This document shows positions 1 through 26,653 of a stretch of 64,000 bases of DNA, piece by piece. Both the position numbers and the translations under genes were made by a program. How positions within the stretch are numbered: position 1 is the first letter of the stretch; the number at the start of each line of letters is the position of its first letter. The notes beneath the pieces are model-generated. The model did not search any database. It was not told the origin of the DNA and worked only from the letters and a program-made list of their open reading frames with translations. Source of the stretch: Catajapyx aquilonaris. Its lineage: Eukaryota. Location of the stretch: positions 1 through 64,000 of the forward strand of contig JYFJ02000634.1 of NCBI GenBank assembly GCA_000934665.2, read 5' to 3'.

Positions 1-214
1 GTGTGTCTGATCAGGAGGAGGTCTATTGTCTGACTCTGGATGGGTTTCTCTCTGGTGATATATCATCTCGCCCGCTAGGCGGCTCTGTATTACAACAATC
101 GACAAGGGGATACCCCCATACATGCTTGCATCGCTGGGACTTTTTCTAAACTATGATAATCATTTCACAAAATATTGTGGACAATATTTAAAAGCTACAT
201 TTGCTTTTTTGCAG

Positions 215-850
215 GATGATAAGAGCAGTAATGATTCAAAACAAGGAGCGACGGGGATGGACGAAACGACCAAGGAACATGGAGGGCCCAGTGGAGGTCG
301 CCATTCGCCTGAAGGATTTGCGAGAAAGGGGGAAGACTCTTCACGTCCATTTGACGAGGACAACTCGAAAGAAACACTCGGCACTGTTGACGCCTTACTT
401 CGTGCAGGCAAATTGACTGATTCTCCGGCAGATAACAAGGAGGTTACACCAAAACTAGGAAGGGTGTTGGGTCATGACTATCAGGACACTCTTGCGAGAA
501 AGAATAACATGGCCTACTCTCTAAGGGAGCAAGGCAAGCATGACGAAGCCTTCCTGGTTTACAGGGAGGTTTTGGATATGAGGGAAAGAGTGTTGGGTCA
601 TGACCATCCGGACACTCTTTTGACAAAGATGAACATAGCAGTGTTGCTACGGATTCAAGGGGAGTACGAGGAAGCGTTGCGTGTTTTCAGGGAGGTTTTG
701 GATAAGCAAGTATATCCGGACACTCTTAGGACGAAGAATTACATAGCAGGGGTGCTACGGAATAAAGGAAATACTACGACGAAGCTTATTAGCAGCCACA
801 CAGGGAGGTTTTGGATAAGAGGGAAAAAGTGTTGGGTCGTGACCATCCGG
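215..850 (+). pseudogene. TPR-repeat protein (kinesin light chain / nephrocystin-3-like 42-aa repeats), copy 1; frameshifted and truncated
   Basis: Acceptor tttttgcag at 214, ATG at 257. Repeats of LGHDHPDTL.TK.N.A..L..QG..EEAL...REVLD. Around 775 the frame leaves the TPR register although the DNA repeat (gggaggttttggataagagggaaaaagtgttgggtc) continues to ~850, then unrelated sequence follows. Confidence 0.7.
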
Positions 851-1284
851 ACCACCCCCCTGCCACTCCCTATCCCAGTACATTTCTCGTCCCCCTGTGA
901 GCTTAGCTCTGCTCCCCCAATGCGAGGGTTTGCCACTGGCGGCGCTAGTCTCAGTCCCCGACTGTCCCCGATACGAGATTCCGAAATACAACACAGCGGT
1001 CCCAGCCCCGGACGCGAAATTCCGGAATCCCAGCAGGAGGCAGGATCAGCGCGTGCAAGAATTAAGTGTTGTAGGGAGGTAGGCGTATACAGTGAAACCT
1101 GTGTATAGCGGAATCGCACGGGACGCCCAAAATTTTCCGTAATGAACAGGTTTCCGCTAAATGCAGATCAAGGACGTTTCTGAGATTTTTTGCTGGTGAG
1201 AAAGAGAGGAAGGGGGGGGAGCAGAAATAAACACTATAGACTATACCATACCTCAATATGGTACACATCACCCCGCATCTCGTC

Positions 1285-1670
1285 CTCGAGTGCACTTCTC
1301 CAGTGCGGTACGGACGATCAGAGTATCTGCGTCTGCATCTGCTTGACATCCAGTGACACCGATCTCCTGGAAACTTTCCATCAAGAGGTCGATGAGGCGA
1401 GCCTTGTTGTGACCATTGCTGAGGAAGTCGCTCTGCTTACTCCCAACAATGGTGTTTCTCTCTAAGACAATGTTGTGGCACAGTCTTCGCGGCGCCTCTG
1501 TTCAGCACCTTTAGTAGTATAAGACGCTCGCTGTACCCGTCGAATACTACAGTGGCAGAAGGGTAATGACGCTCGACATACTGATGGTACGTATCCACGA
1601 CTGCTCCAAAGGTGGCAGGTCGTGGCCATACCACGGCATGAAGCAGGTAACCGCCATCAAGAACAACCCG
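1285..1670 (-). mobile_element. Degenerate XPG/PIN-like transposon protein fragment (Academ-like DNA transposon)
   Basis: VVLDGGYLLHAVVWP...Y..YV..HY..ATVVFDGY, followed in shifted frames by TKGAEQRRR and QADADADTLIVRTALE. This is the motif order I recognise from the XPG-like domain of Academ-type transposon proteins. Frameshifted. Confidence 0.55.
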
Positions 1671-2739
1671 AGGCTTCCTCAATCTCTGTCTCGGTGGCAG
1701 CAGATGAATTGAATACTTGAAGAAGCGTCGGTTTGGCAGTTTTCCGCATAGACACTTCGTCGAAGAGTGCTGAATTACTCTAGTGAATGAATTACTCTTG
1801 TTGTATACCAGCTGTAATAACATTGCAAAATTCGACACCAATCCGATCTTTCTTAAGCCCGCAATTGCAAGTTTGGAGTTATATACGCACTGTTTGCGCA
1901 AAATAAGTCCACGTAGCCTAAACCTTCCGCGGACAACTTTTGCAGGTGGGAGTGAGGTGGCAGGTGGTAGTGACCTTATGACCTCCTGCATGTTAGCAAT
2001 CGTCTGAGCGACCTCGAATTATGCGGAAATGACACCAGCATTGCCATGGAGAGGCAATTTGGAATTTCAAAAAATCTATGACCTTTTTTTCCAAAATGGT
2101 TCCCATTTTGACCCCTCAAGGTCAAGGGTCAGGGTGCTGCTGGTCAATTTGATCGCCTTAGTCTATTGAACGTATGTGCAAAGTGGCTTGCTTTCTGTAA
2201 GAATTTGCAGCATTTTACACCGTTTTTCCAAGTGTACGGCTCAGATTAGCAAGATGGCACTATCATGCACTATCAAATATTTTGACAGTTTTTTAACAGA
2301 TGATCGCACAAATATGCGAGTGATATCGTTGCAAAGGTGGGAATGCGAGGAAACCTTTTCCGTCCTACACATTTTGTCGAGTCTGCTGTGCGTAACGAAT
2401 TATCTTCATGTTTTCAAAAGTGCAAGGCGAAAATTCAAACTTGGCGGGCGTTTTCACGGTGACCTTGACCTGCAGGTGGTATGATGACCTGACAGTCACG
2501 TTGCACATCTAACTCTAGACAATTTAAGAGGAATCCGAGCACAATCGGACGAGTAGTTTCGTTTTTATAGCCAATTCCAAGGCGAGTGTCACTTATGTAC
2601 TTCTTGGGCCAAAAAAAACATGACGCGCACATGGGATTTTTCGGGACTTTCAGTATGTTGCTCAGGACACTCTGTGGGACCCATGTACAAATTTTCAGCT
2701 TGACATTATTTTTTATTGGGTCAAACCCTAAAACTCCTG

Positions 2740-3420
2740 GGCTATATTGACGCCTTACTTCATGCAGTCAAATTGAACGATTCTCCGGCAGATAACAAGG
2801 ACGTTTTACCAAAACTAGAAGGAGTGTTGGGTCTTAACACAAAGGTTTTAGATAAGGAGGAAAAAGTATTGGATCATGACCATCCGGACACTCTTAAGAC
2901 AAAGCACAACATGGCCAACACGCTTCACCAGCAAGGGAAGCACGAGGAAGCCTTGCGGATTTACAGGGAGGTATTGGATAAGAGGGAAAAAGTGTTGGGT
3001 CATGACCATCCGGACACTCTTTGGACAAAGAATAACATGGCCCTCACGCTTCAGCAGCAAGGGAAGCACGAGGAAGCCTTGCTGGTATTAAGGGAGGTTT
3101 TGAATAATCAGGAAAAAGTGTTGGGTCATGACCATCCGGACACTCTTACGACAAAGCACATCATGGCCAACACGCTTCACCAGCACGGGAAGTGCGAGGA
3201 TGCCTTGCGGATTTACAGGGAGGTATTGGATGGGAGGGAAAAAGTGTTGGGTCATGACCATCCAGACACTCTTACGACAAAGAACAACATGGCCAAGACG
3301 CTTCACCAGCAAGGGAAGTACGAGTAAGCCTTGCGGATTTACAGGGAGATTTTGAATATCAGAGAAAAGGACGGTGTTGGGTCACATGACTCATGACCAT
3401 CCGGACACTCAAGACAAAGA
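2740..3420 (+). pseudogene. TPR-repeat protein copy 2 (126-bp / 42-aa tandem units); 5'-truncated with premature stop
   Basis: The start aligns to copy 1 at ~381 (gacgccttactt...gattctccggcagataacaagg). About 3.5 clean TPR units. TAA at 3325-3327 replaces the GAA of the repeat (gag GAA gcc to gag TAA gcc), and the repeat DNA continues degenerate to ~3420. Confidence 0.75.
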
Positions 3421-4889: not shown

Positions 4890-5503
4890 TAGGCAGCATT
4901 ATGTCACCCTGTCGGGTGATTTCCGACAAACTCTACCTGTCATTCAGAGAGGCACCAGGGAGAATGAGGTGAAGGCATCCATCAAATACTCCTCCATACG
5001 GAGTCAAGTTCAGACACTGTCTTACTCTTACCGTGAATATGCTGCTGGTGCACTTGAATGGGGACTCAGCAGCCGGTGATTTTGCAAGCTTGGTGTTGGA
5101 AATCGGAAACGGCAGAGTGCCTGAAGAGGATGGCGTAATCCAAGTGACTGATGGACATGGGGCACGTTGTCCACACCTTTGATGATCTATAATTTCCAAC
5201 GTCTATCCTGATTTAGCCACGCTCAGTCTGCAGTCACAGACGTGTCTCTGTGAACGAGCCATTTTGACTTCAAAGAACGATACTGCCGACTACATCAAGC
5301 ATTTTCTCCTACGCAAGTGTCCGGGTGAGGATAGCCTCCACGTGTCAGTTGACAGTGTCGTCAATCCAGATGACGCTGTCCACTATCCGGTGGAATTCCT
5401 GAACGACTCTCTGAATCCACCAGGTCTACCTCCTCACAAACTCTGTCTCAGGCTGGGGTCACCAATCATGCTCCTTCGATATCTGTATCCCCCAAAATTG
5501 TGC
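4890..5503 (+). mobile_element. Helitron RepHel PIF1-like helicase fragment (degenerate)
   Basis: VTLSGDFRQTLPVIQRGT from 4902, then FASLVLEIGNG, ERAILTSKND and YPVEFLNDSLNPPGLPPHKLCLRLGSPIMLLRYLYPPKLC. These are characteristic Helitron helicase motifs, with frameshifts. Confidence 0.88.
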
Positions 5504-5790
5504 ATTCTTCGTGTCGACCATAGCACTTTTGTCTGTTCCTCTGCCTTCTCATATCTTTCTCGTCACTTTGCTTAATATATATATATATATATGTATGTTT
5601 AAAATCCTTCTTCTGACAGTGGAAGTCCGTCGTACGTCCTCATCAAAAGTCCCAGGAGCGATAACAGTTAACAACAACAACAACAACAACAACCCCAGCA
5701 GCAGCAGCCAACAAAGAACAGTTGTCAGGATCCAAATTGGGTGAGGTTCATCAGTTATGTTGTGGAGTAAGGAAAAAAGGAAGGTCCTTT
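5504..5790. repeat. Diverged duplicate of sequence 3' of the SK gene (matches ~19435-19732)
   Basis: Collinear match ttcttcgtgtcgacca...gataacagttaacaacaac...gttgtcaggatc...ggaaggtcctttt in the same orientation. Confidence 0.92.
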
Positions 5791-5794
5791 TTAA

Positions 5795-6847
5795 CCCTTT
5801 GCTGCCTACGGCCATCATATGATTTCCGGAGATTTGCCCTGCCAACTTGGGTCATTTTTCAACGCAAAAAATTTCAACCTCAACGATTTTCTTCAAATTC
5901 GGTGCATTGGTAGCCCACCCCAAGGGATGAAAAACGCACCTATAGTTACCTGATCAAAATGACCTCGTGACCCAATTTTGAGGGGGGCAGAGGTCAAATC
6001 ATAAAATTACGACCTCACCGATTTTCTTGAAATTCGGTGCATTGGTAGCCCACACCAAGGGATGAAAAACGCACCTATAGTTACCTGATCAAAATGACCA
6101 AGTGACCCAATTTTGAGGGGGCAGAGGTCAAATCATAAAATTCCGACCTCGCCGATTTTCTTCAAATTAGGTCCATTGGTAGCCCACCCCAAGGGATGAC
6201 AAACCCACCTATAGTTCCCTGCTCGACATGACCCTGTGGCCCATATTGGAGGGGACCTATGTCAATGCGCCGAATTTCAAGAAAATTTGTGACTGGCACT
6301 TGCAAAGTCTCCCTTGTGATTCACTAAGGCGGGTAGTACGTGTACGCAAAAAATGTAAGTGTGTATATAACCTTGGTATAACCCCCGAATTTCAAGAAAA
6401 TCGGTGAGGTTGGAATTTGACCTCTGCGCTCATCAGAATTGGGTCACGAGGTCATTTTGATCAGGTAACTATAGGTGCATTTTTCATCCCTTGGGGTGGG
6501 CTACCAATGCACCGAATCTCAAGAAAATCAGTGAGGTCGATATTTTATGATTCGACCTCTGCCCCCCTCAAAATTGGGTCACGAGGTCATTTTTATTAGG
6601 TAACTATATGTGCGTTTTTCATCCTTTGGTGTGGGCTACTAATGCACCGAATTTGAAGAAAATCCGGTGAGGTCGAAATTTGACCTCTGCCCCCCTCAAA
6701 ATTGGGTCACGAGGTCATTTTGATCAGGTAACTATAGGTGCGTATTTCATCCCTTGGGGTGGGCTACCAATGCACCGAATTTCAAGAAAATCAGCGAGGT
6801 CATAAAATTTCCGGAAAAGGGGGGAAAAAAACTCCGTCATCAAAGGG
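5795..6847. mobile_element. Non-autonomous TTAA-flanked (piggyBac-like) foldback element with internal ~120-bp tandem repeats in two inverted arrays
   Basis: TTAA|CCCTTTGcTGcC ... GtCAtCAAAGGG|TTAA termini. The unit (aaattcggtgcattggtagcccac...aaaatgacc) is repeated at 5880-6260 and inverted at 6385-6800. Confidence 0.8.
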
Positions 6848-6856
6848 TTAAGAGGG

Positions 6857-7410
6857 CCTGGTGCAGGAAGAGGCGACGCCTCACTGCTGGCTGGCGTCGT
6901 GCTGCTGCCTCAGCACCTTCGTCAGCACGTCTGGGAGGTTCTCCAGGCTGAATGAAGGAGCGACTGACCGCCCTGAAGGACAAGCTGGGGGCTGCCCCAG
7001 CTTGTCCTTCAGGGCGGTCAGTCGCTCCTTCATTCGTGGTGGGGTGGCTGCTCATCTCCGCCTCTATCTCCTTACGTTGACGCCTGCGTCTGGAACGCGT
7101 CAGTTCGCGTTAGTACCACGCCCCAGATCAACGACCCAAATGCATCTTGGCCATGTCTGTGAGGGTGTTGGCGTTGTCCATCAGCTTCCGTTGGTCCACC
7201 GTCACCTTTCGAAGACTGCAAGATTATCAAATCAGGCAACTGGGTCACAGATGACCTCCCAAAGGGGTCACTCACGCGTAGACGGCCAGATTAAACGTTC
7301 CTCTAGTACGTAGTCTAGTGCGTCCTGACCCTGGAGGCGTTGAGCCTGTTCACCAGCTTGGTGTATACAATCATGTAGATAAGCCACGTCTCGCGATGAA
7401 CGTTATTGGC
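6857..7410 (-). pseudogene. SK: Partial SK pseudogene: degenerate copies of exons 10, 11 and the 5' part of the terminal exon, with introns
   Basis: Aligns collinearly with 21971-23410 (AAANNVHRETWLIY, DQRKLMDNANTLTDMAK, ERLTALKDKLG). Contains indels and a mutated donor (aag|atgcat). Confidence 0.92.
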
Positions 7411-9965
7411 AGCAGTGTTAATATGTGTGATGGAACGGGAAAGGACAAAAGGGATTAATTCGCCCTCAGAATATTCCTCTTCTTTTCCAGAAGTTAATCT
7501 TATCACTTGCTGGCTGCTTTGTGACTGGATCAAAGAGAAATCGGGGATTGAGTGGGGATGTTACGAATCAGGAAGATCCAGCCGGGGTTCAATCTGCAAT
7601 TTTCTCTTTCAAACAAACTCATTACCACTTATTAACTTCCTGTTCAGCCTCACATTTATAGGTGATTTTGGACTCGTCTGACCTCCGATAGGTCAGACGT
7701 TGTTATCAACCAGATGTGCTTTATCACTCGACTATTTTTAGTGGAGTCGTGGTAACAACGGATAAATGTGAGTGTATATAGATCGAATATCGGTTGCGAA
7801 CTAGTTTCACGCCTCGTTAGTCGTTCCGTAGGGCGTGACTTATCCATTTTTTGACTCCCAAACTCATGACCTATCCACCCAAATTTTTGACCTCTTTTTT
7901 CGCCCCAGGCTATTTCCTTTCCTTTTTTCACTCACCGCACCACCGTCTTGATATTATCAACTTCTTCCTCCGATGGTTTCCCCCCGGATGGTTAATTCCT
8001 GGAAAATATTCCCTCCCGTTTAATCGCCTATTATTATTACGTCCCTTCAAAATGCCTCGCCACCTTCAACCTCTGACCTCATCCGCCATTATTCAAATGG
8101 CTGGAAAATTACTGATAAATTTAATTCGACAACTATGCATGATTTTAACGGCTTCATTGTTAGAGATTGCCGCCAGTGTATTGGACATAATATTCACAGT
8201 TGCCTTTACTGTCACAACCGATTGGATATGAATATTATTAGCGAATGGCTCACTAATAAATTTATCACCAGAAGCTACTTTCTTTTGCATGTTAAGCACG
8301 TCAGATTAGTGGAAGTGCCCGCCTTCTTTTCTGCAAACTTGACCGACAAACTTGATAAGTACCTTCCGGTGATAAGAGAAGCCTCGAGCACAGTACTACA
8401 ATTGAACTGCATGCTGTGTAGTATTTGCTGATTAAGTCACTGGAAGTGCGACATTCCTAGGATCACTGTAAGTTGTTACAATAATTACTGTGCAATTAAT
8501 CACTAATTAAGTCACTACAATCACAAGGGTAATCGACATGCACACTGTGTGTAATGTATCATGTGAACACAAAATGGAGCCCACTTTTTGTGGGTGGATT
8601 AAAAAATTGACGGTTGACCTGTGACACACACCGCTTCGTTTTTTTCTCCATACGGATGTGTGTGATTGTGCGAATACCCTTGACGCTGACCGTTTTGAGA
8701 CCAATTGAAAAATTCACTCTCAGAATAAAGAGGCACTCTAGCAATGAACTGTTGAAAATGGCACTTGAATATACCACTCAGAGAGCGAAATATGTAAGGG
8801 TTTCTTTAATAATTACTCAAAGCTGTATTTGTTTTAAAACAACTGTAGTCTGTATGGAGGGTGTGTGTCCCCCCCTAGCGAGCCAAGGGCTAGAGTAAGG
8901 GGTAGGAAAATAAATAAAATAAATGAAATAAAAATAAACAACCAAGAAAAATTGCGAAACTCGTTACATCGCAATGAGGCCACACATATCGAGATGCACT
9001 CACTTAAAAAGCATTACCGCATTAAAAACACCAGAAAATAAAGTCAAAACAATTCAGCCAACATGGCACATTCAATTAGAAAGCAAGACTTACCAGTGTC
9101 ATGATTGTAACAATGTGTCCATGCAGTTGCGATAATCCAGCTTGTCACGTAAAAGGTTCACTGAATCACTGGAGTATTAGTTTGAACTTCGATCAAAGGC
9201 AGTGGAAGAAAGGTCCTTCTCCGCACCATTCGCCAATTACATTGTCTGCAGGTTTTGGCAATGGGAAAGGAAATTAGATTAGGACCCAAGAGGTCACGCC
9301 CTTTTCGATCAAAATGTACGCAAAATAATTATTTGGCGAGGTTTGGACTCCAAACATGTGCTGGATGAAAGGGAAAATGTTGGCGAAATAATTCGATCGA
9401 TTTGGGCGACACTCAAATTTTGACCTCCAAAAAAAAAGGTGGAAGGACACTACGCGTCACTTTTTCAGCGAGATGCCGTGCGTTCCTGCGCGTTGGTTCC
9501 GCGTGGGGCTGGGTGACAGCCCGAGGGATGTCAGTGGTGCCACTGATCGAGGCGACGCCCGTCGACGTCTCCTTCATTCCCCACACCACCATCCATCAAC
9601 CAGCTCACCTGTTACCTGCCCAAAATTTCCCATCAAGATCATGGTTGCATGTGGAATTTCACGGTATGGAAAGACGGACCTGCACATTGTGGCGCCCCCC
9701 CCCCCAATCCCCGTACCTTATTGCGACATAACAGTCGTACTCAATATTAATCCCATAAACCATTTGTATGCTGTGTTTTAGTAAATAAGCATGTGTGCTT
9801 ACTAAGAAATATCATTAAATCTGCATTTTTGGCTGCGAAATATTCGTAGAGTAATATAATGAAAGATATTACTCAGAGAATATATTGTTATTTTCACCAT
9901 TTCATCATTAAACTTTCTGAACTTGCAGTGTTCCTGGTGTGGAATGAACAGCTAAAGGAAGGGCC

Positions 9966-10498
9966 ATGGCATCTGAATCCGAGAGGGACAAGAAGTCCTG
10001 GAGCGAGTTGCATCTGGCAGCGAACATGGGAAATTTTCGCATAATCGAAGTCCTCCTTCAGCGAGGTTACGACGTGAACGCGAGGAGCAGCATACTCTAC
10101 AGGACCCTACTCATTTTGGCAGCCAGAATCCAAAACATCCTGACCTGCGAGAAGCTGGTGTCTCACTCCGGATGCGACGTCAATTCGCAGGATCATTCCG
10201 GTGTGTCCGCCCTTCACGAGGCGGCGGAACGAGGCAGCGTGCAGGTGTGTCAACTGCTAATTGACAACGGTGCCAAGGTGGACATCCGGACAGACGATGG
10301 GTTCACTCCGCTGCATATGGCGGCAAAGGCTGGTCAGCTGATGGTGGCCGAGCTTTTGCTGGAGAAGGGAGCTGACCCACTGGCCTTCACCAACGAGGAA
10401 GTGACCCCGTCATTCCTCGCAAATGACGCAGGGTACACGGCTGTATGGAAGATCCTCAAGGATGCAGCGGACAAGGCCCAGAACCAGGGTGGAGCAAG
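9966..10498 (+). CDS. Ankyrin-repeat + eIF2-alpha-kinase-family protein, coding exon 1 (about 4-5 ankyrin repeats)
   Basis: SELHLAA..G, SALHEAAERG, GFTPLHMAAKAG. ATG in gccATGg context after an acceptor cttgcag at 9928. Donor AG|GTAAGG after 10498 (phase 2). Confidence 0.88.
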
Positions 10499-10561
10499 GT
10501 AAGGATAGGATTTGATGAATACGAATGCATTTCATCTCAATCCGATTCGTTCCTTCCACAG

Positions 10562-11513
10562 CAGGATTACTGAGTTGGCCGAAGAAGTGTTCCCTTTGAA
10601 AGAGGGCCATCTGAATAGGGTCTTCAAAGTCTCCCGTTTTTTGGGCTCTGGAGGTTTCGGGTTGGTGTTTGAGGCTCTGGAGGTACCCACGAATCTGACG
10701 TGTGCTATCAAACGCATATGCCTGCAGAGTGCTACAAACAAACCCATGAGGGACGTTCGGGCCCTGATGGAGCTTCAACATAAGAACATTGTCGCCTTCT
10801 ACGGATGCTGGAGAGAACAACCACTGTCCAAGGATCAAGGGGATTGGGACATGAACCATTTCACGGACTTGGTGTGCTCCAGGCAGACGTACCATCCTCA
10901 CACCACCCCCTACCTCTACGTCCAGATGGAGTTGTGCCAGAGGGAAACCCTGGAGCATTACATCTCCAAGAACAGGAACGAGGTGAACCAGCCCGAGTTC
11001 CTGTCCTACTTCCTGCAGATAACTTCGGCCTTGAGTTATATCCACGGAAGGGGCTACATCCACAGGGACCTGAAGCCTTCCAACGTCTTCTTCTCCCTGG
11101 ATGGTGTTGTGAAAGTGGGGGATTTCGGGTTGGCCAAGGAGATCGCGGGCTATTCCATCCGGACGTTGACCCACCAAAGCCACACCGGTGGGGTAGGCAC
11201 CCTGTGGTACATGAGTCCGGAGCAGCAGAGTGGAGAGAAATACGACTACAAGAGTGACATATTCTCTCTCGGGGTAATATTCTATCTCGGGATGACATCA
11301 TTCCCAAGCCAGTTCACCTCGAGCCATCTGGATCGCGCACTCATCAAGCTGAAGGCAGGTTCGGTCACGGTTCCTCCACATTTTGCAGAGCAGAATCACG
11401 ATAGTAGCCAGGAGCTGCTCCTACTGATGTGCAAGGAGGATCCAGAAGAGAGGCCGTCCGCGGCTGACATAGAATATTGCGTAGGAGAATGGTGTGTGCG
11501 ACATACAGCTTAG
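10562..11513 (+). CDS. Ankyrin-repeat + eIF2-alpha-kinase-family protein, coding exon 2 (PKR/PERK-like kinase domain)
   Basis: LGSGGFGLVF, AIKRI, HKNIVAFYGCW, kinase insert, YLYVQMELC, IHRDLKPSNVF, VKVGDFGL, HTGGVGTLWYMSPEQ, SDIFSLG, RPSA. Acceptor ttccttccaCAGCAG; both AGs (10561, 10564) are phase 2 and match exon 1. Confidence 0.9.
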
Positions 11514-18532: not shown

Positions 18533-20249
18533 ATTATTTATTATATAATAGCAGAACTCTTTGGATGTAAGTCACATTTTCGTCGCAACTGGTAGTAACC
18601 ATAGCTACTAATAATTAGCTAACTATGGTTACACCCGATTGCGACAAGACTTACATTTGATGGATCCACCCCCTGGATTGCAAAAACAGTGAATATCTAC
18701 TGATATTACGAGTCAAAATGATTTTTTAAAATATTTCAGACCACATAAGTTACAAAAACTTTGCTGGAAATTTAATCTTAATTTTAAGCAATGGTAGTTG
18801 AATGGCAAATTTGAGATTTTAAATATACAGTACTTGTGAAACTACAATTATTGAGGAAAATTTTCCAACAGTCAATCTTATATTTTTATAATAACTGTTG
18901 TAGCTAATAGGAATGAAACGTGCAGTAATTTTTGATTGATATTTTTAGAGCACTGGTAAATTTTACCAGTGGTCTAAAACTAATGAAAAATGACTGCACT
19001 TTTCATTCTCTTCCTATGGTAGATTGAACATAAACAATATTGAAATTTTTGCACCATATTGACTCCAAATATCTCGGATGACTTTCACTCTAGCGTTCAA
19101 AATTTTATTCGTATTATTTTGCACCTTTTCAACCTTCAAATTTCCTTTGCCGCATTTTCTTTCATTATTTGCAACATTTCGCGACACTTGGATTTTCTTA
19201 TGTACAAGTCAAGGTACGAAGTTGGAGTGTCCGGAGATTAGTTTGGAATAAGATCATCAAGAGAGTGAGAGCGAGAGAGATAGTAAAAGGCGCCAAAAAC
19301 AATTCTTCTCTTTCAACCCCCCAGATAAATATTTACCAGGCACCCCCGAAAAAATAAAATAAGAATTATTAGTAATATAATAACAAGTTTGCATGACTGG
19401 CCCCCCCTATTTAACCAGGGAGTCTCAGGTACTTATTCTTCGTGTCGACCATCGCACTTTTCGTGTCTGTTCCTCTCTCTCTGCCTTCTCGTATCCTTCT
19501 CGGCACTTTTTAAATATACATTTTAAAATCCCATTGTTATATTTCTTCTGAAAGTGGAAGTCCTTGTGTCCGTCCTCATCAAATGTCCCAGCAGCGATAA
19601 CAGTTAACAACAACAACAACACTACCACCACCGCAGCAGCAGCAGCCAACAAAGAAAAGTATGTTGTCAGGATCAAATGGGGGTGAGGTCCATCAGTTAT
19701 TTTGTGGAGCAAGGAAAAAAAGGAAGGTCCTTTTCAAAGACTTTTTTTATACCGTACCATTCGAAACTAGTAAATAGTAGTAATAATAATATACGGTAGT
19801 GTTATAATAGTAAGTACGGTATAGTGGGGATTTGGTCCGCAGTTAAAGATTTAGCCAGCAAAACAGCAGGCACTTAAAACAAGGAACCTTCTCTCTCTAT
19901 CACGTCCACTTCTCACCGTACATTTTGTATACGCGCACACGCAACATGAAAAGAAAATTGACGTCGGTGTACCTGCAACTACAACAAGTCCTTTCAAAAA
20001 AAGAAGTAGTTGGTCTACTCACTATTATACCCGTTCGCCTACTTGTCAAGTGCACGTGATTTCTTCTGCCTTTTCGGTATACATTTTGTTTCACAGCACC
20101 GGTTGCATGAAACTCACGTCTAATCCTGATTCGCAAGAAAAAGGGCAAGGTCACTTGGTCAATGCTGACCCCTTCATTTTTTTAACGGACGCAACCTTGT
20201 GAGCACCAAAGTTCGCGCAGCTTGCATGGTTGGCCCTCTCCTCAGCTGT

Positions 20250-20690
20250 GTTACACGAGCCAGTTTACATGGAACCAAATTGAATCGCTTCAGGATAAAG
20301 CGCACTATTCTTGTCATACGGCCACGTTACACGCCACTTTTGTAGCGCTTCCTTTCCAAACGTGTTGATATGATCCGATTAAACTGCTGCAAAGGATGGC
20401 TCAACGAAGAGAGGCATCTCAACACGCTTTATCGTTACACGGCAGCAATGGAGCGTTCTACTTTGCTCTCCTTCCTGAAGCGCTTTAAATTTTAACTTTT
20501 ATATATTTCCCCTTAATTTGAGCCAACTTGGGCTATTTCGGGGGGAGCTCTGACCTACACCATTTTTCCCTTTGTACATAACAAAGAAACAAGCGCTTTT
20601 AATTGTTATCGTGTAACGTGGCTGCAGCAAAAGCTAGAGCGTCTCAAGATAAAACGCACTATCCTTGTACACATGATTTGGTGTAAAGTG
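20250..20690. repeat. Dispersed internally repetitive family (ggagcgcaaagtagagcgctccattgctgccgtgtaa; aaggatagtgcgctttat); other copies ~27215-28080, ~48650-49560, ~50110-50410
   Basis: Shared motifs recur in both orientations at the listed loci. Confidence 0.7.
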
Positions 20691-21662
20691 CGTGTAATGC
20701 GCTGCACTAATTTCCAACGCTACTATTGGGAGGGAACAAAATGGTCGAGGTTTGCGACGTTGCCAGAGCTGCGTGAATGTGGGTGCGCACTAGGTTGCGC
20801 TCGTTAAAAACCTCATCCGTAGCACTGACCTTTCTCTAATGAGCCAGGATGAACTCAGTGCGACCCATTCGTTCAAGTGTGGCCCAACAGGGCTTTGATT
20901 TTATGATGCAAGGCTTTTTTCTTTTCTTTTTTAAAGACATTTCTTAAATCTGTGTTAAAGGGGAGGAGGGAAAGGGGAGGACCACCATTTTTGATTTCTG
21001 AAGTTGTGGACACGCCTGTACCCGGCACGGCCTGGTACACGACCAGGTAATGAAAAGACAATTGGTCATCCCAAAAAAGACACTGGGAAAGAGTCACGCC
21101 CCGACCATCGTCATCATAATAACTCTAATTAATAAAAGGAAGAGGAAAAAAGTGAGGGGGGGTGGGGTGACACACATGTCCTGTGCAAGTGCGTGCGCGT
21201 ATGAACAGGCCTAATAAATATCTTATATACAGTAGAACAATTGATGTTGGTGGGTGTCCTCCCGAGTCCGTTGGTTCATCAGCCCCTGGGCTGACACTAG
21301 TGCAAACACTGTATACAGTACACGTTTTAGGCTGGTGTGCACTACACTACGTTTTCGTTGGAATGGGTGTCTCTCTCAGGTGGGCTCAGGATCATTTTAT
21401 GGAACAATTAGAAACATTTTGCGGGAAGATTAACTAATTTTAAAAAAATTTAGTCAGCAGCACGACTGTCCAGAAGCGGCGCTTCGGGAGGGCTTTTTTG
21501 GATGGTCCTCCACACTTGTTCACTCGCAAAGACATATTAAGAGCACTTGTTTCATTGTGGTGTGTCGTACCCCCCGGTGATGCAGCAACTGCCCCCCAAC
21601 CCCTGCGTATCTTGCGAGCGGCGCCGCGCGTCGGATGCTGACTAGATAAGAAACTCCTGTGG

Positions 21663-22160
21663 TTAGGAGGTGGAGGACCTGGGCGGTAAGGGTGGTGGGA
21701 AGGGCAGGCCGGAGGCGGACGTGGTTGAGGAAGTGGACGGCCCGGGGGCTGCGCTCGGCCCGCGGGCGGGCCCCGGGCTGAACAGCGGGTGCGGGGAGGT
21801 CCAGGGCGGGGGCGTCGGGGTCGGGGATGGGGAAGGGACGCTCCTGGAGTGGGTAAGGAGGCTGGGTTGGGTCAGGCCGTAGGATGGCGGGGGAGCTTGG
21901 GGGGGAGGGGCCAGGAGGGGCGGCGGGATGGCCCCGGGGCCCGCCCCTCCTCCGAGCACGGCCGACTCCGGGTGCAGGAAGAGGCGACGCTGCTCGCTGG
22001 CGTCGTGCTGCTGCCTCAGCACCTTTGTCAGCATGTCTGGGAGGTTCTCCAGGTGATCCAGGGCAGCCCCCAGCTTGTCCTCCAGGGCGGTCAATCGCTC
22101 GTCCACGTGCTCGTGGTGGCTGCTCATCTCCGCCACTATCTCGTACGTCGAAGTCTGCGT
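21663..22160 (-). CDS. SK: SK channel terminal coding exon 12 (coiled coil and Pro-rich tail, stop TAA)
   Basis: Acceptor gcgttccag|ACG. TQTSTYEIVAEMSS...ERLTALEDKL...EQRRLFLHP...HSRSVP resembles insect SK C-termini. Confidence 0.93.
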   Translation of the reverse strand, partial: TQTSTYEIVAEMSSHHEHVDERLTALEDKLGAALDHLENLPDMLTKVLRQQHDASEQRRLFLHPESAVLGGGAGPGAIPPPLLAPPPQAPPPSYGLTQPSLLTHSRSVPSPSPTPTPPPWTSPHPLFSPGPARGPSAAPGPSTSSTTSASGLPFPPPLPPRSSTS

Positions 22161-22219
22161 CTGGAACGCGTCAGATCGCGTTAGTACGCGCTCGACCGCT
22201 TTCAATGACCCCGCCCCAA

Positions 22220-22539
22220 AGACTTTTCTCTCCACAAAAAAAGTATTACAGAACGGCTCTGTCCGTCCGTCTGTCTGTGGGCTGGTATCAGGACCTAAAC
22301 CGCATGAGATAGCGACAAACTGTTTACGGATTCGGATTCAGCGTGACTAACATAGATTTCATGGTCAACTTCCGGTTTTCCGGGCCCACTCTATCCACCA
22401 AGGTCATCTCTATGGCTGGGGGTCATTTGGTTCCATGAAAACCAGAAATGAGACTGACAACATTCCATGTCATTTGTTATCCAATTTGAATTTCCTTGGC
22501 AATAAGAAAAAGTCTACTCGAATCGCGCTAGCGAGATTT
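22220..22539 (+). mobile_element. DINE-1/Helentron-like short element with GTCC/GTCT microsatellite; copies at ~22641-22943 (-), ~30745-31075 (-), ~39690-39890 (-), ~44876-45188 (+)
   Basis: Conserved core ctctgtccgtccgtctgt...cctaaaccgc.gagatagc.acaaac...ttcggattcggattcag...caacttccgg at five loci. The family label is inferred from the GTCY repeat. Confidence 0.7.
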
Positions 22540-22990
22540 ACGATTCACGTGATCGTGGTGGCTCCTCAATCTCCGCCGCTATCTCGCACGTTGACGTCTG
22601 CGTCTGGAACGCGTCAGATGGAGTTCAATGACCCTGTCCCAAACAATATTGGCAAATCATGCGAGCGTAATTCGAGTAGACATTTTTCTCATTACCGTGA
22701 AAATTCACATTTGACAACAATGACATAGAATGTTAGTCTTATTTCCGGTTTCCAATGAACCAAACGACAAGCTGCCCTAGCTTGACCTTGGCGGACAGTG
22801 GGACCGGAAAATCGGAAGTGGCAGGTCACCGGAAGATGGCCATCTAAGGTCCGCTGAATCCGAAAACCCTTTGTCGCTATCGCTTGCGGTTTAGGCCCTG
22901 ATACCTGTCCACAGACGGACGGACGGACAGAGCCGTTCCATACAGGCCTGTTGTTTACGCCGTCACGATTTGAGCCTCGGTCGCACGACC

Positions 22991-23149
22991 AGATGCTTTG
23001 CGACCGACAAAAATGGGCTCTCCTAGGTCCGGTCGCAACGACTGGAGGCAAGCGACCTCCAAACCGACCAAAATAAAGATGGTGGCAAGCCTCCAGTCGT
23101 CCCAATAGGGACCTAGGGCTACCCATTTTTGTCGGTCGCAAAGCGTCTG
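22991..23149. mobile_element. Hairpin MITE 12 nt from the SK exon 11 donor
   Basis: Inverted arms cagatgctttgcgaccgacaaaaatggg / cccatttttgtcggtcgcaaagcgtctg. Confidence 0.75.
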
Positions 23150-23161
23150 TCGAAAACGTAC

Positions 23162-23231
23162 CTTGGCCATATCTGTGAGGGTGTTGGCGTTGTCCATCAG
23201 CTTCCGTTGGTCCATCTTCACCTTACGAAGC
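23162..23231 (-). CDS. SK: SK exon 11 (calmodulin-binding domain, LRKVKMDQRKLMDNANTLTDMAK)
   Basis: cttgcag| ... aag|gtacgt; 70 nt, phase 2 to 0. Confidence 0.96.
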
Positions 23232-23288
23232 CTGCAAGATAATCAAATCAGGCAACTGGGTCAGGAATGACCTGGCAGGGTCACTCAC

Positions 23289-23416
23289 GCATAGATGGCC
23301 AGCAGGAACTTCCTCTGGTGCGTTCTGACCCTGGAGGCGTTGACCCTCTTCACCAGCTTGGTGTACTTGTAGATAAGCCAAGTCTCGCGAAGAACGTTGG
23401 CAGCAGCGTTTTTCAT
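23289..23416 (-). CDS. SK: SK exon 10 (calmodulin-binding domain, [43 protein letters not shown])
   Basis: gcccccag| ... gc|gtgagt; 128 nt, phase 0 to 2. Confidence 0.96.
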
Positions 23417-25400: not shown

Positions 25401-25707
25401 ACCCCACTTTTTGTTAATCAATTTGGGGCTATGATTAGGCTTAGTCTTGGGTCAGTATGTTCATCCAGTCCGGGGCCACATCGTGGTAGGGGCGGCCCCG
25501 GGGCAGCAGGCGCCTTCCAGAGCGGGCCGATGAGTCGGTGGAAGGGGGCGGTGCAAGCGGCGGCGTGAAAAGAGACGTTTTTTGGGGGCAAGCTTTGAGT
25601 GGCCAACAGTCGTGTGTGGGCTTGTACGGGACAGATTTGGGATGAGTGCAGGTCAAGAGGGGGTTGGGAAGGAAAGGTGACGGGACGAGGTCAAAGGTGA
25701 GACTTAC

Positions 25708-25843
25708 CATCATGCCAGTAGTGACTGCGATGCCCCGTCCGCAGTAAGTGTTGGGCACGATGTCGCCATATCCAACGCTCAGGAAGGTAATGGCGATGAG
25801 CCACATTGAGTTGAGCAGGTTGGCGTGGTCCACGTCATGGTAC
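25708..25843 (-). CDS. SK: SK pore exon 8B ([45 protein letters not shown]), mutually exclusive
   Basis: ctcaccag|G ... atg|gtaagt; 136 nt, phase 2 to 0; GYG selectivity filter. Confidence 0.95.
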
Positions 25844-26517
25844 CTGGTGAGGGCGGGAACGGACACTCGGGGCGTACCCGGGGCAAGAGAGACAGGGGCG
25901 GGCCGAAAAGGGGGGAACAAATGGGAACGGACTAGGAGGAACCAAAAATCAACAACAAACAATCAACAACAGAAAAATGACGCAGCCCTGTTCTTCTGCA
26001 CTGAGGCCCAGCAAGTCAATAAACCGACAACCGACGGTGCTGTATACAGACCGCGAATTTAAAAGGGAAGTGGAAGAGAAGAGAGAGAGAGAGGAAGAGA
26101 GGAAGAGAAAGAAATAGAGACAGAGAGAGCCACAGGGTGGAAGGACATACTGCGACGCCCCTTCGATCCCACCCAAAAAAGAGGTCAAAAGGTCGCGACC
26201 GACCGACGAAGGCCCCGAGATCCGGTTAGAGCCCAGCAGCCAGCGAGAAGCTAGCCAGCCAGCAATGGTTGGGGAGGTCGAGGTAAGGGTGAGGTCAAAG
26301 GTGAAAGGTCTTCGGTGGCAAACGAGCAAGCAGGATGACACAGTACCGGCGCAGGTGCAGCGAACGACAAGGCAATAAAAAAGGCAGTTTTATGACAGGC
26401 GCATGCAGGCCATGGTCACGTCACGCCACGGACGACATCGAGGTGGTGGAGGGGACATCATTTGGTGGGGGATCCAGGTCAAGGGTCAGCCAACGGTCGG
26501 GACGGATGGACACTTAC

Positions 26518-26653
26518 CATCATGCCGCAGCTGACGCAAATGGCTCGTCCGCAGAGTGTGTTTGGGACGATGTCCCCGTACCCTACGCACAGGAAGGTTA
26601 TGGCGATCAGCCACATTGCGTTTAGCAGGTTGGCATGGTCCTCGTCATGGTAC
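26518..26653 (-). CDS. SK: SK pore exon 8A ([45 protein letters not shown]), mutually exclusive
   Basis: cctcgcag|G ... atg|gtaagt; 136 nt, same phases as 8B. Confidence 0.93.

What the first reader, a model, noticed from the sequence alone, without database searches (positions are those of the whole stretch)
9966..11513. Ankyrin-repeat / eIF2-alpha-kinase-family fusion gene: a candidate non-canonical stress or immune sensor kinase
Seen: the two ORFs listed separately join in frame through a 63/66-nt GT-AG intron (AG|GTAAGG ... CAGCAG|). The product is an intact 493-494-aa protein of about 4-5 ankyrin repeats plus a kinase with eIF2a-kinase hallmarks (kinase insert, LYVQMELC, HRDLKPSNVF, HTGGVGT..YMSPEQ). 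Established: HRI, PKR, PERK and GCN2 use heme-binding, dsRBD, lumenal and RWD/HisRS sensor domains, not ankyrins; ANK plus a kinase fold is the layout of RNase L, where the ankyrins bind 2-5A. Inference: a lineage-specific ligand-gated translation-shutoff kinase, possibly a functional PKR analogue in an invertebrate. I cannot tell from sequence alone whether this architecture is already described.
Basis: partly seen in the sequence, partly recalled or inferred. Interest (0 to 1): 0.85.

Follow-up and report, generated by a model that had tools for sequence, protein, structure and literature searches.

The report
Ankyrin-repeat eIF2-alpha-kinase-like gene, arthropod
An arthropod genome carries an intact two-exon gene that joins five ankyrin repeats to a very divergent kinase of the family that shuts down protein synthesis under stress, a domain combination I could not find elsewhere, but nothing yet shows that it is expressed or what it phosphorylates.

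Summary
Exon 1 (9966-10498) and exon 2 (10562 or 10565 to 11513) join in frame across a 63/66-nt GT-AG intron. The product is a 494/493-aa protein with no internal stop.

- **Domains:** exon 1 is ankyrin repeats (Pfam Ank 5e-32). Exon 2 is a protein kinase (Pkinase 2e-47).
- **Family:** the best sequence matches among solved structures are PERK, GCN2 and PKR. The best structural matches are the same three.
- **Coding signal:** GC3 is 0.68 in the coding sequence, against GC 0.41 in the intron and flanks.
- **Host:** an arthropod, judged from the neighbouring SK-channel gene.
- **Architecture:** no relative above 48% identity appeared in 1.84 billion representatives. None of the 269 nearest kinases carries ankyrin repeats.
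- **Phylogeny:** the kinase sits on a very long branch, on the PERK side rather than the PKR side, and is otherwise unresolved.
- **Residues:** catalytic residues are kept. Three positions that matter in eIF2-alpha kinases deviate: Asp for the alphaC Glu, no N-lobe dimer salt-bridge pair, and a 5-residue insertion before helix alphaG.

Verdict: a real, probably active, lineage-specific ANK-EIF2AK-like kinase. Expression, eIF2-alpha specificity, ligand gating and any immune role are untested.

The parts
9966..10498 (+). Exon 1. Start codon at 9966-9968, then five ankyrin repeats (residues about 12-170) and the start of a short linker. It ends with the first two bases of a split codon.
   Evidence: ORF. 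Pfam Ank 5.3e-32, Ank_2 6.3e-31 and Ank_4 1.1e-26. 33-residue periodicity. GC3 0.684. No hydrophobic segment: the maximum 19-aa Kyte-Doolittle mean is 1.28.
10499..10561 (+). Intron of 63 nt, or 66 nt if the second AG at 10563-10564 of the tandem CAGCAG acceptor is used. The donor is GTAAGG and the acceptor follows a pyrimidine-rich tract. The donor itself creates the in-frame TAA that closes the exon-1 ORF.
   Evidence: Sequence. Frame check. It is the only consensus-like in-frame pair among 10 candidates. GC 0.409 against 0.54 for the CDS. Splicing itself was not observed.
10562..11513 (+). Exon 2. A linker of about 20 residues, then a complete Ser/Thr kinase domain of eIF2-alpha-kinase type with a kinase insert of about 30 residues, and a stop at TAG 11511-11513.
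   Evidence: Pkinase 2.1e-47 over residues 21-302. PERK 1.3e-47, GCN2 2e-38 and PKR 8.6e-38 among solved structures. AlphaFold2 model with pLDDT 82.8 and pTM 0.85. Foldseek best match is PERK at 1.1e-21.
10710..10712 (+). Catalytic lysine (K49 of exon 2, in the AIK motif).
   Evidence: Invariant column in the 65-row alignment A1. Codon read.
10752..10754 (+). Asp (D63) at the alphaC position where at least 90% of 65 aligned relatives have Glu.
   Evidence: nearly invariant E63 column; 13 of the 14 other rows have E and one has L. Codon gac read.
11061..11129 (+). Catalytic loop HRDLKPSN (H166-N173) through the DFG motif (D186-G188).
   Evidence: H166, R167, D168, K170, P171, N173, D186 and G188 are invariant columns in A1. 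Codons read.
11295..11318 (+). alphaF-alphaG linker (T244-T251). It contains a 5-residue insertion relative to the other 14 aligned eIF2-alpha-kinase-type domains.
   Evidence: Alignment. In the model, alphaF spans 229-243 and alphaG spans 252-263, with local pLDDT about 70.

Best explanation
This is a real, spliced, protein-coding gene of an arthropod. It encodes a soluble cytosolic protein of 493/494 residues: five N-terminal ankyrin repeats, a linker of about 25 residues, and a C-terminal kinase domain of the eIF2-alpha-kinase (PEK/EIF2AK) family.

**Shown**
- The open, correctly phased two-exon structure.
- The two domains.
- The eIF2-alpha-kinase-type sequence and predicted fold.
- Retention of all catalytic residues and of the activation-loop Thr.
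- Absence of a signal peptide or membrane segment, and of dsRNA-binding, lumenal, RWD or HisRS-like domains.

**Inferred**
- The kinase domain descends from the PERK side of the family and has evolved fast.
- It lost PERK's lumenal and membrane parts and gained ankyrin repeats as a new regulatory module. This parallels the way fish PKZ carries Z-alpha domains where PKR has dsRNA-binding domains.
- The ankyrin repeats most likely bind a protein partner (of the host or of a pathogen), or hold the kinase in check. Engaging the partner would concentrate or release the kinase domains so that they autophosphorylate on the activation loop.
- The most likely substrate is still eIF2-alpha Ser51, which would give a local shut-off of translation.

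This last step is the weakest. The N-lobe dimer salt-bridge pair is absent, the alphaC Glu is Asp, and the alphaF-alphaG linker is lengthened. Activation geometry and substrate docking may therefore differ from the canonical four kinases.
For: **Gene model**
- Searches support the two-exon structure.
- Coding signature: GC3 is 0.68 against 0.41 in the intron and flanks, and it is the same in both exons.
- The longest ORF is 334 codons, against at most 246 in 2000 shuffles.

**Domains**
- Ank 5.3e-32 and Pkinase 2.1e-47.

**Family**
- PERK, GCN2 and PKR are the top 18 solved sequences, and the next family is 33 bits lower.
- Scored per domain, the nearest of 1.84 billion representatives have the PERK layout: a kinase with a long insert at the C-terminal end of a roughly 1000-aa protein. 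Examples are P0145 at 186.5 bits and the Tenebrio molitor cluster that its source names eIF2-alpha kinase 3, at 178-180 bits.
- Foldseek ranks 1 to about 40 are all PERK, PKR or GCN2.
- The beginning of the insert resembles the PERK motif.

**Catalytic competence**
- K49, H166, R167, D168, N173, D186, G188, G211, T212 and Y215 all sit in invariant columns of 65 rows.
- The activation-loop HT..VGT..YMSPEQ is kept, as in PERK.

**Localisation**
- No membrane segment and no other Pfam domain in either exon.
- No other domain in 69 flanking ORFs between 3.3 and 21.9 kb, apart from repeat and SK-channel fragments.

**Maintenance**
- The branch is 1.8-3.3 substitutions per site, yet the 1.5-kb frame is intact. 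This argues for long-term purifying selection.

**Context**
- A published table of vector arthropods lists PERK and GCN2 as present and PKR as absent in every genus shown (PMC7917218, Table 1 passage read).
- A swap of sensor domain within this family has a precedent in PKZ (PMC7137213, abstract in the listing).
Against: - **No expression evidence.** No RNA run could be listed, and no orthologue or paralogue is available, so dN/dS was not possible. No genome is held, there is no second copy in the window, nothing above 48% identity, and only generic bacterial-type kinases in metagenome and viral contigs.
- **Placement outside PERK and PKR.** With bacterial kinases as outgroup, the trees place the window kinase outside the clade of all sampled PERK, PKR and other eIF2-alpha-kinase-like rows, with support 99/94. 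That position is prone to long-branch attraction.
- **Incomplete sampling.** No GCN2, HRI or unrelated eukaryotic kinase could be included, because the long hits I hoped were GCN2 turned out to be bacterial multi-kinase proteins. Membership in the family rests on similarity scores and fold ranking, not on a complete tree.
- **A discordant lead.** The language-model look-up put PDIK1L and MOS clusters first, not eIF2-alpha kinases. It is a lead only, but it does not agree.
- **Dimer salt bridge absent.** The pair called 'strictly conserved' (R262-D266 in PKR; PMC6467004, passages read) corresponds to H and V here.
- **alphaC residue changed.** The alphaC Glu is Asp.
- **alphaG region altered.** The eIF2-alpha kinases owe their special alphaG to a reduced alphaF-alphaG linker, and Thr487 is highly constrained (PMC11556786, passages read). 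Here the linker carries a 5-residue insertion and is 8 residues long in the model.
- **Unstable neighbourhood.** The gene lies between two copies of a degraded segmental duplication, in a repeat-rich stretch. Such settings also produce non-functional chimeras.
Confidence: 0.45

Rival explanations
1. It is a functional ANK-kinase that has left the eIF2-alpha pathway. The kinase domain, though derived from an eIF2-alpha kinase, now phosphorylates other substrates that the ankyrin repeats recruit. It would then act as a signalling or scaffold kinase in the manner of other ankyrin-repeat kinases.
For: - The branch is very long, and the domain is excluded from the sampled PERK+PKR clade.
- There is a 5-residue insertion in the alphaF-alphaG linker, the region that gives eIF2-alpha kinases their substrate-docking alphaG (PMC11556786).
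- The N-lobe dimer salt-bridge pair is lost (PMC6467004).
- The alphaC Glu is Asp.
- The catalytic residues are intact, so it is probably still an enzyme.
Against: - The P+1 and activation-loop region and subdomain IX remain closely PERK/PKR-like.
- A Thr or Ser is available at the alphaG N-terminus under either of two plausible alignments.
- The overall fold ranks eIF2-alpha kinases first.
- No alternative substrate can be named.
Confidence: 0.3
2. It is a non-functional or never-expressed chimera. An ankyrin exon and a kinase exon were brought together by duplication or retroposition in an unstable, repeat-rich region, and the ORF is open only because the event is fairly recent.
For: - No orthologue, paralogue or transcript was found.
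- Otherwise near-invariant positions are substituted.
- Degraded duplicates of SK-channel exons, a Pif1 fragment and tandem and inverted repeats lie within 4 kb upstream.
- The whole kinase domain sits in one exon, as a retrocopy would.
Against: - The divergence from every known relative is large (at most 41% identity over a full domain, branch 1.8-3.3), yet both exons are open.
- The splice sites are consensus-like and in phase.
- All catalytic residues are kept.
- GC3 is equally high in both exons and drops to the flank level in the intron. Old pseudogenes do not look like this.
Confidence: 0.15
3. There are two separate products. The intron is not removed, giving an ankyrin-only protein of 178 aa that ends at the TAA at 10500-10502, and, from a separate start (for example the ATG at 10515), a kinase-only protein.
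For: - Each ORF is open on its own.
- An ATG lies near the start of the second ORF (read).
- Splicing was not observed (one search listed no run).
Against: - The stop that ends ORF 1 is itself part of a near-perfect donor, AAG|GTAAGG.
- A pyrimidine tract with a CAG acceptor follows 63 nt later in the right phase.
- The 63-nt stretch has flank-like composition.
- Two cistrons 12 nt apart on one strand are not a usual animal gene arrangement (general knowledge).
Confidence: 0.07

Closest known systems
PERK (EIF2AK3)
   Same: It is the closest kinase domain by sequence (mouse PERK kinase domain at 1.3e-47, and per-domain best hits) and by fold. Shared features are the beginning of the kinase insert, the HT..VGT..YMSPEQ activation loop and the HRDLKPSN catalytic loop. 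A clade of PERK plus this kinase is not rejected (p-AU 0.177).
   Different: There is no signal peptide, lumenal domain or membrane segment. The kinase insert is about 30 residues instead of some hundreds. The alpha0 motif with the dimer salt-bridge pair is absent, the alphaC Glu is Asp, and there are 5 extra residues before alphaG. The N-terminal ankyrin repeats are new. It is not a PERK orthologue.
PKR (EIF2AK2) and fish PKZ
   Same: The size and layout match: a short N-terminal sensor module, a linker, and a C-terminal eIF2-alpha-kinase domain with a short insert, in a cytosolic protein. PKZ shows that the sensor module of this family can be exchanged (PMC7137213, abstract in the listing).
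   Different: There are no dsRNA-binding or Z-alpha domains. The kinase lies on the non-PKR side of a 98/91 split, and PKR+window has p-AU 0.055. Ankyrin repeats bind proteins as a rule, not nucleic acids (general knowledge).
RNase L
   Same: N-terminal ankyrin repeats are followed by a kinase fold, so the order of domains is the same.
   Different: RNase L is not among the 60 best solved matches of the ankyrin exon, nor among the listed matches of the kinase. There is no KEN or ribonuclease domain in the gene or its surroundings. The kinase here keeps all catalytic residues. That RNase L has a pseudokinase of the IRE1 type is recalled knowledge.
Ankyrin-repeat kinases such as ILK, TNNI3K, RIPK4/ANKK1 and DAPK1 (names recalled, not from a call)
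   Same: Ankyrin repeats and a protein-kinase fold sit in one chain, with the repeats serving as a protein-docking module.
   Different: The kinase domain here belongs to a different family. No such kinase appears among the best solved matches. The one ANK-plus-kinase protein met in the searches (P0286) matches the window kinase at only 37 bits.

Membership tests
eIF2-alpha kinase (PEK/EIF2AK) family | The kinase domain is most similar in sequence to PERK, PKR, GCN2 or HRI, rather than to other kinase families. | tested here: met
   PERK 165.6 bits, GCN2 135.4 and PKR 133.3, then NEK7 100.7. HRI scores only 97.9, over a partial stretch; the best per-domain hits of 1.84 billion representatives are PERK-type.
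eIF2-alpha kinase (PEK/EIF2AK) family | The predicted fold is closest to solved eIF2-alpha kinase domains. | tested here: met
   Model with pLDDT 82.8. Foldseek ranks 1 to about 40 are PERK, PKR and GCN2, and the first other family (Nek7) appears at rank 42.
eIF2-alpha kinase (PEK/EIF2AK) family | There is an insert between strands beta4 and beta5 of the N-lobe. | tested here: met
   About 30 residues (roughly 85-115 of exon 2) lie between the strands at 78-84 and 116-121 of the model. They align with the insert region of the PERK and PKR rows.
eIF2-alpha kinase (PEK/EIF2AK) family | The domain groups with the family, or one of its four subfamilies, in a phylogeny. | tested here: inconclusive
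   It falls inside the clade that excludes bacterial kinases (100/100) but is sister to all sampled PERK, PKR and other rows (99/94), on a long branch. PERK+window has p-AU 0.177 and PKR+window 0.055. Without the outgroup it sits in a polytomy on the PERK side. No GCN2, HRI or other eukaryotic kinase families were in the tree.
eIF2-alpha kinase (PEK/EIF2AK) family | [quoted passage not shown] | tested here: not met
   In the alignment all 6 PERK-type rows have S-R-Y-x-x-[D/E]-[F/Y] before the glycine loop. The window has G-H-L-N-R-V-F, with H and V at the two positions.
eIF2-alpha kinase (PEK/EIF2AK) family | The alphaF-alphaG linker is reduced, alphaG is extended, and a constrained Thr is present (Thr487 in PKR; PMC11556786, passages read). 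| tested here: inconclusive
   There is a 5-residue insertion relative to the 14 other rows. The linker is 8 residues in the model, at pLDDT about 70. A Ser (S248) or a Thr (T251) could take the Thr role, depending on the alignment. The intended control model of mouse PERK failed (pLDDT 32).
eIF2-alpha kinase (PEK/EIF2AK) family | The catalytic residues are intact. | tested here: met
   K49, HRD (166-168), N173, DFG (186-188) and G211-T212 are in invariant columns, and R296 is kept in a column conserved in at least 90% of rows. The exception is D63, where at least 90% of rows have Glu.
eIF2-alpha kinase (PEK/EIF2AK) family | The protein phosphorylates eIF2-alpha on Ser51. | not testable with these tools
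   This needs a kinase assay or the yeast growth-arrest assay.
PERK (EIF2AK3) orthologue | It has a signal peptide, a lumenal sensor domain and a single membrane span N-terminal to the kinase. | tested here: not met
   The only Pfam families are Ank and Pkinase. The maximum 19-residue hydropathy is 1.28.
PKR (EIF2AK2) / PKZ | It has N-terminal dsRNA-binding or Z-alpha domains. | tested here: not met
   There is no dsrm or z-alpha hit in either exon, whereas 10 of the 26 top relatives scanned have dsrm.
RNase L | It has ankyrin repeats, a pseudokinase and a C-terminal KEN ribonuclease domain. | tested here: not met
   The ORF stops 13 residues after the kinase's conserved RP motif. No further domain was found in 69 flanking ORFs. 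RNase L is absent from the listed matches.

The most novel reading that the evidence does not exclude
Arthropods have no PKR. At least one lineage may have built a fifth kind of eIF2-alpha kinase by placing a PERK-derived catalytic domain under the control of ankyrin repeats. The repeats would recognise a protein cue, such as a viral or microbial effector or a host guard protein. The result would be a protein-sensing rather than nucleic-acid-sensing translation shut-off, activated through a dimer geometry that does without the canonical N-lobe salt bridge.
Probability: 0.15. Interest if true: 0.8.

Novelty: new variant of a known kind. Interest (0 to 1): 0.5.

Why it matters
The four eIF2-alpha kinases are defined by their sensor domains, and each new sensor (such as the Z-alpha domains of fish PKZ) has revealed a new input into translational control. 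A cytosolic member of the family governed by ankyrin repeats would add a protein-recognition input to the integrated stress response. It would do so in a phylum for which a published survey lists no PKR (PMC7917218).

It would also test how far the activation and substrate-docking surfaces of this family can drift while function is kept. Here the dimer salt bridge is absent, the alphaC residue is Asp, and the alphaF-alphaG linker is longer.

If the gene turns out to be unexpressed, or to have another substrate, it is an ordinary case of lineage-specific domain shuffling.

Tried and rejected
- **Whole genome:** none is held for this window, so no paralogue count was possible.
- **RNA evidence:** no RNA holder was listed, so read laying was not used and the junction stays unverified.
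- **Earlier findings of the scan:** nothing by place, sequence or words.
- **Ankyrin exon against long proteins:** the search was swamped by giant ankyrins. The one ANK-plus-kinase hit, P0286, is unrelated in its kinase (37 bits).
- **Metagenome and viral contig scans:** 80 loci and 1 locus, all at 28-35% identity. They were picked up through the generic DFG motif and were not used further.
- **Search for GCN2 among the long hits:** the 10 long proteins scanned are bacterial multi-kinase proteins. The trees therefore contain no GCN2 or HRI.
- **Protein-atlas look-up:** the nearest clusters are named PDIK1L and MOS. It gives no alignment and was kept only as a caution.
- **Control structure of mouse PERK kinase domain, folded without an alignment:** pLDDT was 32, so it was unusable and the alphaF-alphaG comparison with a control model was not made.
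- **Complex prediction (ankyrin exon against kinase domain):** No result exists.
- **Bacterial promoter/terminator scan:** irrelevant for a eukaryotic gene.
- **Literature:** five full-text searches and a term search inside the EIF2AK evolution paper PMC5851622 (0 occurrences of 'ankyrin') found no description of an ankyrin-repeat eIF2-alpha kinase. The library lacks most subscription journals, and InterPro/CDART could not be queried, so this is not proof of absence.
- **Viral or contaminant origin:** considered and rejected, because of the spliceosomal intron, the host-like GC3 and the single weak viral hit.
- **Larger gene joined to the upstream TPR ORFs:** considered and rejected, because an in-frame stop lies 21 nt before the ATG and 6.6 kb of repeats lie in between. 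An upstream exon cannot be strictly excluded.
Full report
**The observation**

The window holds two adjacent ORFs on the + strand, 9948-10502 and 10509-11513.
- The first Met of the upstream ORF is at 9966, in a GCCATGG context. An in-frame TGA lies at 9945-9947.
- The upstream ORF ends in AAG|GTAAGG. The stop TAA at 10500-10502 is therefore part of a near-consensus donor whose GT is at 10499-10500.
- Sixty-three nucleotides later, a pyrimidine-rich run ends in a tandem CAG|CAG acceptor.
- Joining 9966-10498 to 10562-11513 or to 10565-11513 in a script gives 1485 or 1482 nt, or 494 or 493 aa, with a single terminal stop.
- Ten GT..AG pairs in the junction region keep the frame open. Only these two have consensus-like sequence on both sides, and AGGTAAG occurs only 4 times in both strands of the window.
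- The putative intron has GC 0.41, like the 2-kb flanks (0.415). The coding sequence has GC3 0.68, GC2 0.39 and GC1 0.55, and GC3 is the same in both exons (0.684 and 0.676).
- The longest ORF of the region is 334 codons, against a maximum of 246 in 2000 shuffles.

**The domains**

- Exon 1 matches Pfam Ank (5.3e-32, four stretches), Ank_2 (6.3e-31) and related ankyrin models. It shows five 33-residue units.
- Its best solved relatives are designed ankyrin-repeat proteins and ankyrins. RNase L is not among the 60 listed, so the repeats are generic.
- Exon 2 matches Pkinase at 2.1e-47 over residues 21-302.
- Neither exon has a hydrophobic stretch that could span a membrane: the maximum 19-residue hydropathy is 1.28 and 1.24.
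- I scanned 69 further ORFs of 70 aa or more between 3.3 and 21.9 kb. None carries a domain that could belong to this gene.
- The product is therefore a soluble protein made of ankyrin repeats, a linker of about 25 residues, and a kinase.

**The kinase family**

- Against all solved chains, the 18 best distinct sequences are PERK (1.3e-47, 165.6 bits), GCN2 (2e-38) and PKR (8.6e-38). The next family, NEK7, scores 100.7 bits, and HRI 97.9 over a partial stretch.
- HMMER read 1.84 billion representative proteins and found 936 with E of 1e-30 or better. None was above 48% identity.
- The very top of that list consists of gene predictions that fuse two or more PKR-type kinases. Ten of the 26 scanned have dsRNA-binding motifs.
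- Scored per kinase domain, the closest are PERK-type proteins. P0145 scores 186.5 bits, and the Tenebrio molitor cluster that its source names eIF2-alpha kinase 3 scores 178-180.
- A partial Lottia gigantea protein scores 173 bits at 41% identity.
- An AlphaFold2 model built on a 65-row alignment has pLDDT 82.8 and pTM 0.85.
- Its Foldseek matches at ranks 1 to about 40 are all PERK, PKR or GCN2.

**Phylogeny**

- From 438 kinase-domain stretches in the fetched proteins, I kept the 116 that cover the query from residue 45 or earlier to residue 280 or later.
- A quick tree of these plus the window sequence places the window on a long branch (1.8). A careful tree of a 42-row subset that I chose gives the same placement.
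- In the careful tree the window lies inside the clade that excludes bacterial kinases (100/100).
- It is also sister to all sampled PERK, PKR/PKZ and other invertebrate rows (99/94). The program flags this join as a possible long-branch artefact.
- Holding the window with the PERK rows costs 10.2 log-likelihood units (p-AU 0.177). Holding it with the PKR/PKZ rows costs 8.9 (p-AU 0.055).
- I named both groups after seeing the first tree, which weakens these tests.
- Without the bacterial outgroup, the window falls on the non-PKR side of a 98/91 split, in a polytomy with PERK lineages, on a branch of 3.3.
- No GCN2, HRI or unrelated eukaryotic kinase was available. The long hits that I hoped were GCN2 are bacterial multi-kinase proteins.
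- The tree supports 'not a PKR, possibly a fast-evolving PERK derivative'. It cannot by itself prove family membership.
- A language-model look-up gave PDIK1L and MOS clusters first. I treat that as a caution.

**Residues**

In the 65-row alignment the window keeps every invariant catalytic column: K49, H166, R167, D168, K170, P171, N173, D186, G188, G211, T212 and Y215. It also keeps R296. Its activation loop and P+1 region are PERK-like. Three things deviate.
1. D63 stands where at least 90% of rows have the alphaC Glu. In the 15-row alignment, 13 of the 14 other rows have E.
2. The alpha0 motif before the glycine loop reads G-H-L-N-R-V-F in the window. In all six PERK-type rows it reads S-R-Y-x-x-[D/E]-[F/Y]. 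A review calls the corresponding salt bridge (R262-D266 in PKR) strictly conserved and needed for dimerisation and activation (PMC6467004, passages read).
3. The window has five extra residues between alphaF and alphaG relative to all 14 other rows. In the model, alphaF spans 229-243 and alphaG spans 252-263, leaving an 8-residue linker at pLDDT about 70.

The eIF2-alpha kinases are said to owe their extended, rotated, substrate-docking alphaG to a reduced alphaF-alphaG linker. Thr487 at its start is among the few highly constrained sites (PMC11556786, passages read). Either S248 or T251 could fill that role here. My control model of mouse PERK failed, so this point stays open.

**Host and surroundings**

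- On the minus strand, exons of a small-conductance calcium-activated potassium channel run from about 52.0 to 21.9 kb.
- One exon is 94-99% identical to arthropod proteins, and every species-named hit in the listing is an arthropod.
- Over 591 aligned residues, the best of the 120 fetched proteins is that of Folsomia candida, at 74%. The host is an arthropod, not close to any of those species.
- The ANK-kinase gene lies downstream of that gene, on the other strand.
- It sits between two copies of a degraded duplication. Direct repeats at 5.6-7.3 kb match 19.5-23.3 kb, and decayed copies of the channel's last exons lie at 7146-7449.
- It also lies near TPR_12/TPR_10 ORFs at 59-3327.
- There is no second copy of either exon in the window.

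**Relatives and prior knowledge**

- No ankyrin family is listed for any of the 120 proteins, nor found in the 26 proteins scanned.
- A local phmmer search with exon 1 found ankyrin repeats in 0 of the 269 kinase relatives fetched by then.
- Only the best 150 of 936 strong hits were visible, so a more distant ANK-EIF2AK protein could have been missed.
- Five full-text searches and a term search in an EIF2AK evolution paper (PMC5851622) found no such architecture.
- Subscription journals and domain-architecture databases were out of reach.
- A review table lists PERK and GCN2 as present and PKR as absent in all vector arthropod genera shown (PMC7917218).

**Interpretation**

- Most likely (0.45): this is a maintained gene for a cytosolic, catalytically competent kinase of eIF2-alpha-kinase descent. 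Ankyrin repeats have replaced its regulatory module. They would control kinase clustering or release through a protein partner, and the likeliest output is still eIF2-alpha phosphorylation.
- Next (0.30): the same protein with a changed substrate.
- Then (0.15): an unexpressed chimera.
- Last (0.07): two separate products.

The long branch combined with an intact frame, intact catalytic residues and an even codon signature argues against decay. The three deviating positions argue against assuming canonical activation and substrate docking. It is a new variant of a known kind. Its interest is moderate until expression, conservation and substrate are known.

Noticed in passing
window 59-1108 and 2704-3327 (+): There are two ORFs with kinesin-light-chain-type TPR repeats (TPR_12 5.3e-46 and TPR_10 1.4e-43 in the second). 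The second holds three tandem 126-nt units at 3000-3377. They are probably exons of a TPR-repeat gene of the kind that is expanded in some invertebrates.
   Followed up: partly
window about 21900-52100 (-): A small-conductance calcium-activated potassium (SK) channel gene has exons spread over about 30 kb. Two neighbouring stretches (26509-26700 and 25669-25866) both align to the same pore-region residues of the Folsomia protein. This may be a pair of alternative exons.
   Followed up: partly
window 5600-7450 versus 19500-23300: Direct repeats of 82-90% identity are spaced 14-16 kb apart. Decayed copies of the SK channel's calmodulin-binding and C-terminal exons lie at 7146-7449 (-) (CaMBD 1.5e-5). 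The ANK-kinase gene lies between the two copies of this segmental duplication.
   Followed up: partly
window 5186-5572 (+) and 5859-6805: There is a fragment of a Pif1-helicase 2B domain (6.1e-7), followed by an array of about 135-nt units in direct and inverted orientation (arms up to 232 nt, 93% complementary). It looks like the remains of a mobile element.
   Followed up: no
window 10410-11297 (-): A 295-aa stop-free frame lies antisense to the kinase exon. I take it to be a by-product of the sense strand's codon composition, but it was not searched.
   Followed up: no
window 1437-2018 (-): A 193-aa ORF with no Pfam match lies between the two TPR ORFs. Its origin is unknown.
   Followed up: no
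proteins P0122-P0127, P0130, P0139, P0141 and P0146: Many top database 'proteins' are gene predictions that string together two or more dsRBD-kinase units, probably from tandem PKR or PKZ genes. Where a species name was looked up it was a vertebrate (the frog Ascaphus truei for P0130). Their summed scores put them ahead of the true nearest domains, so ranking by whole-protein score misleads here.
   Followed up: yes
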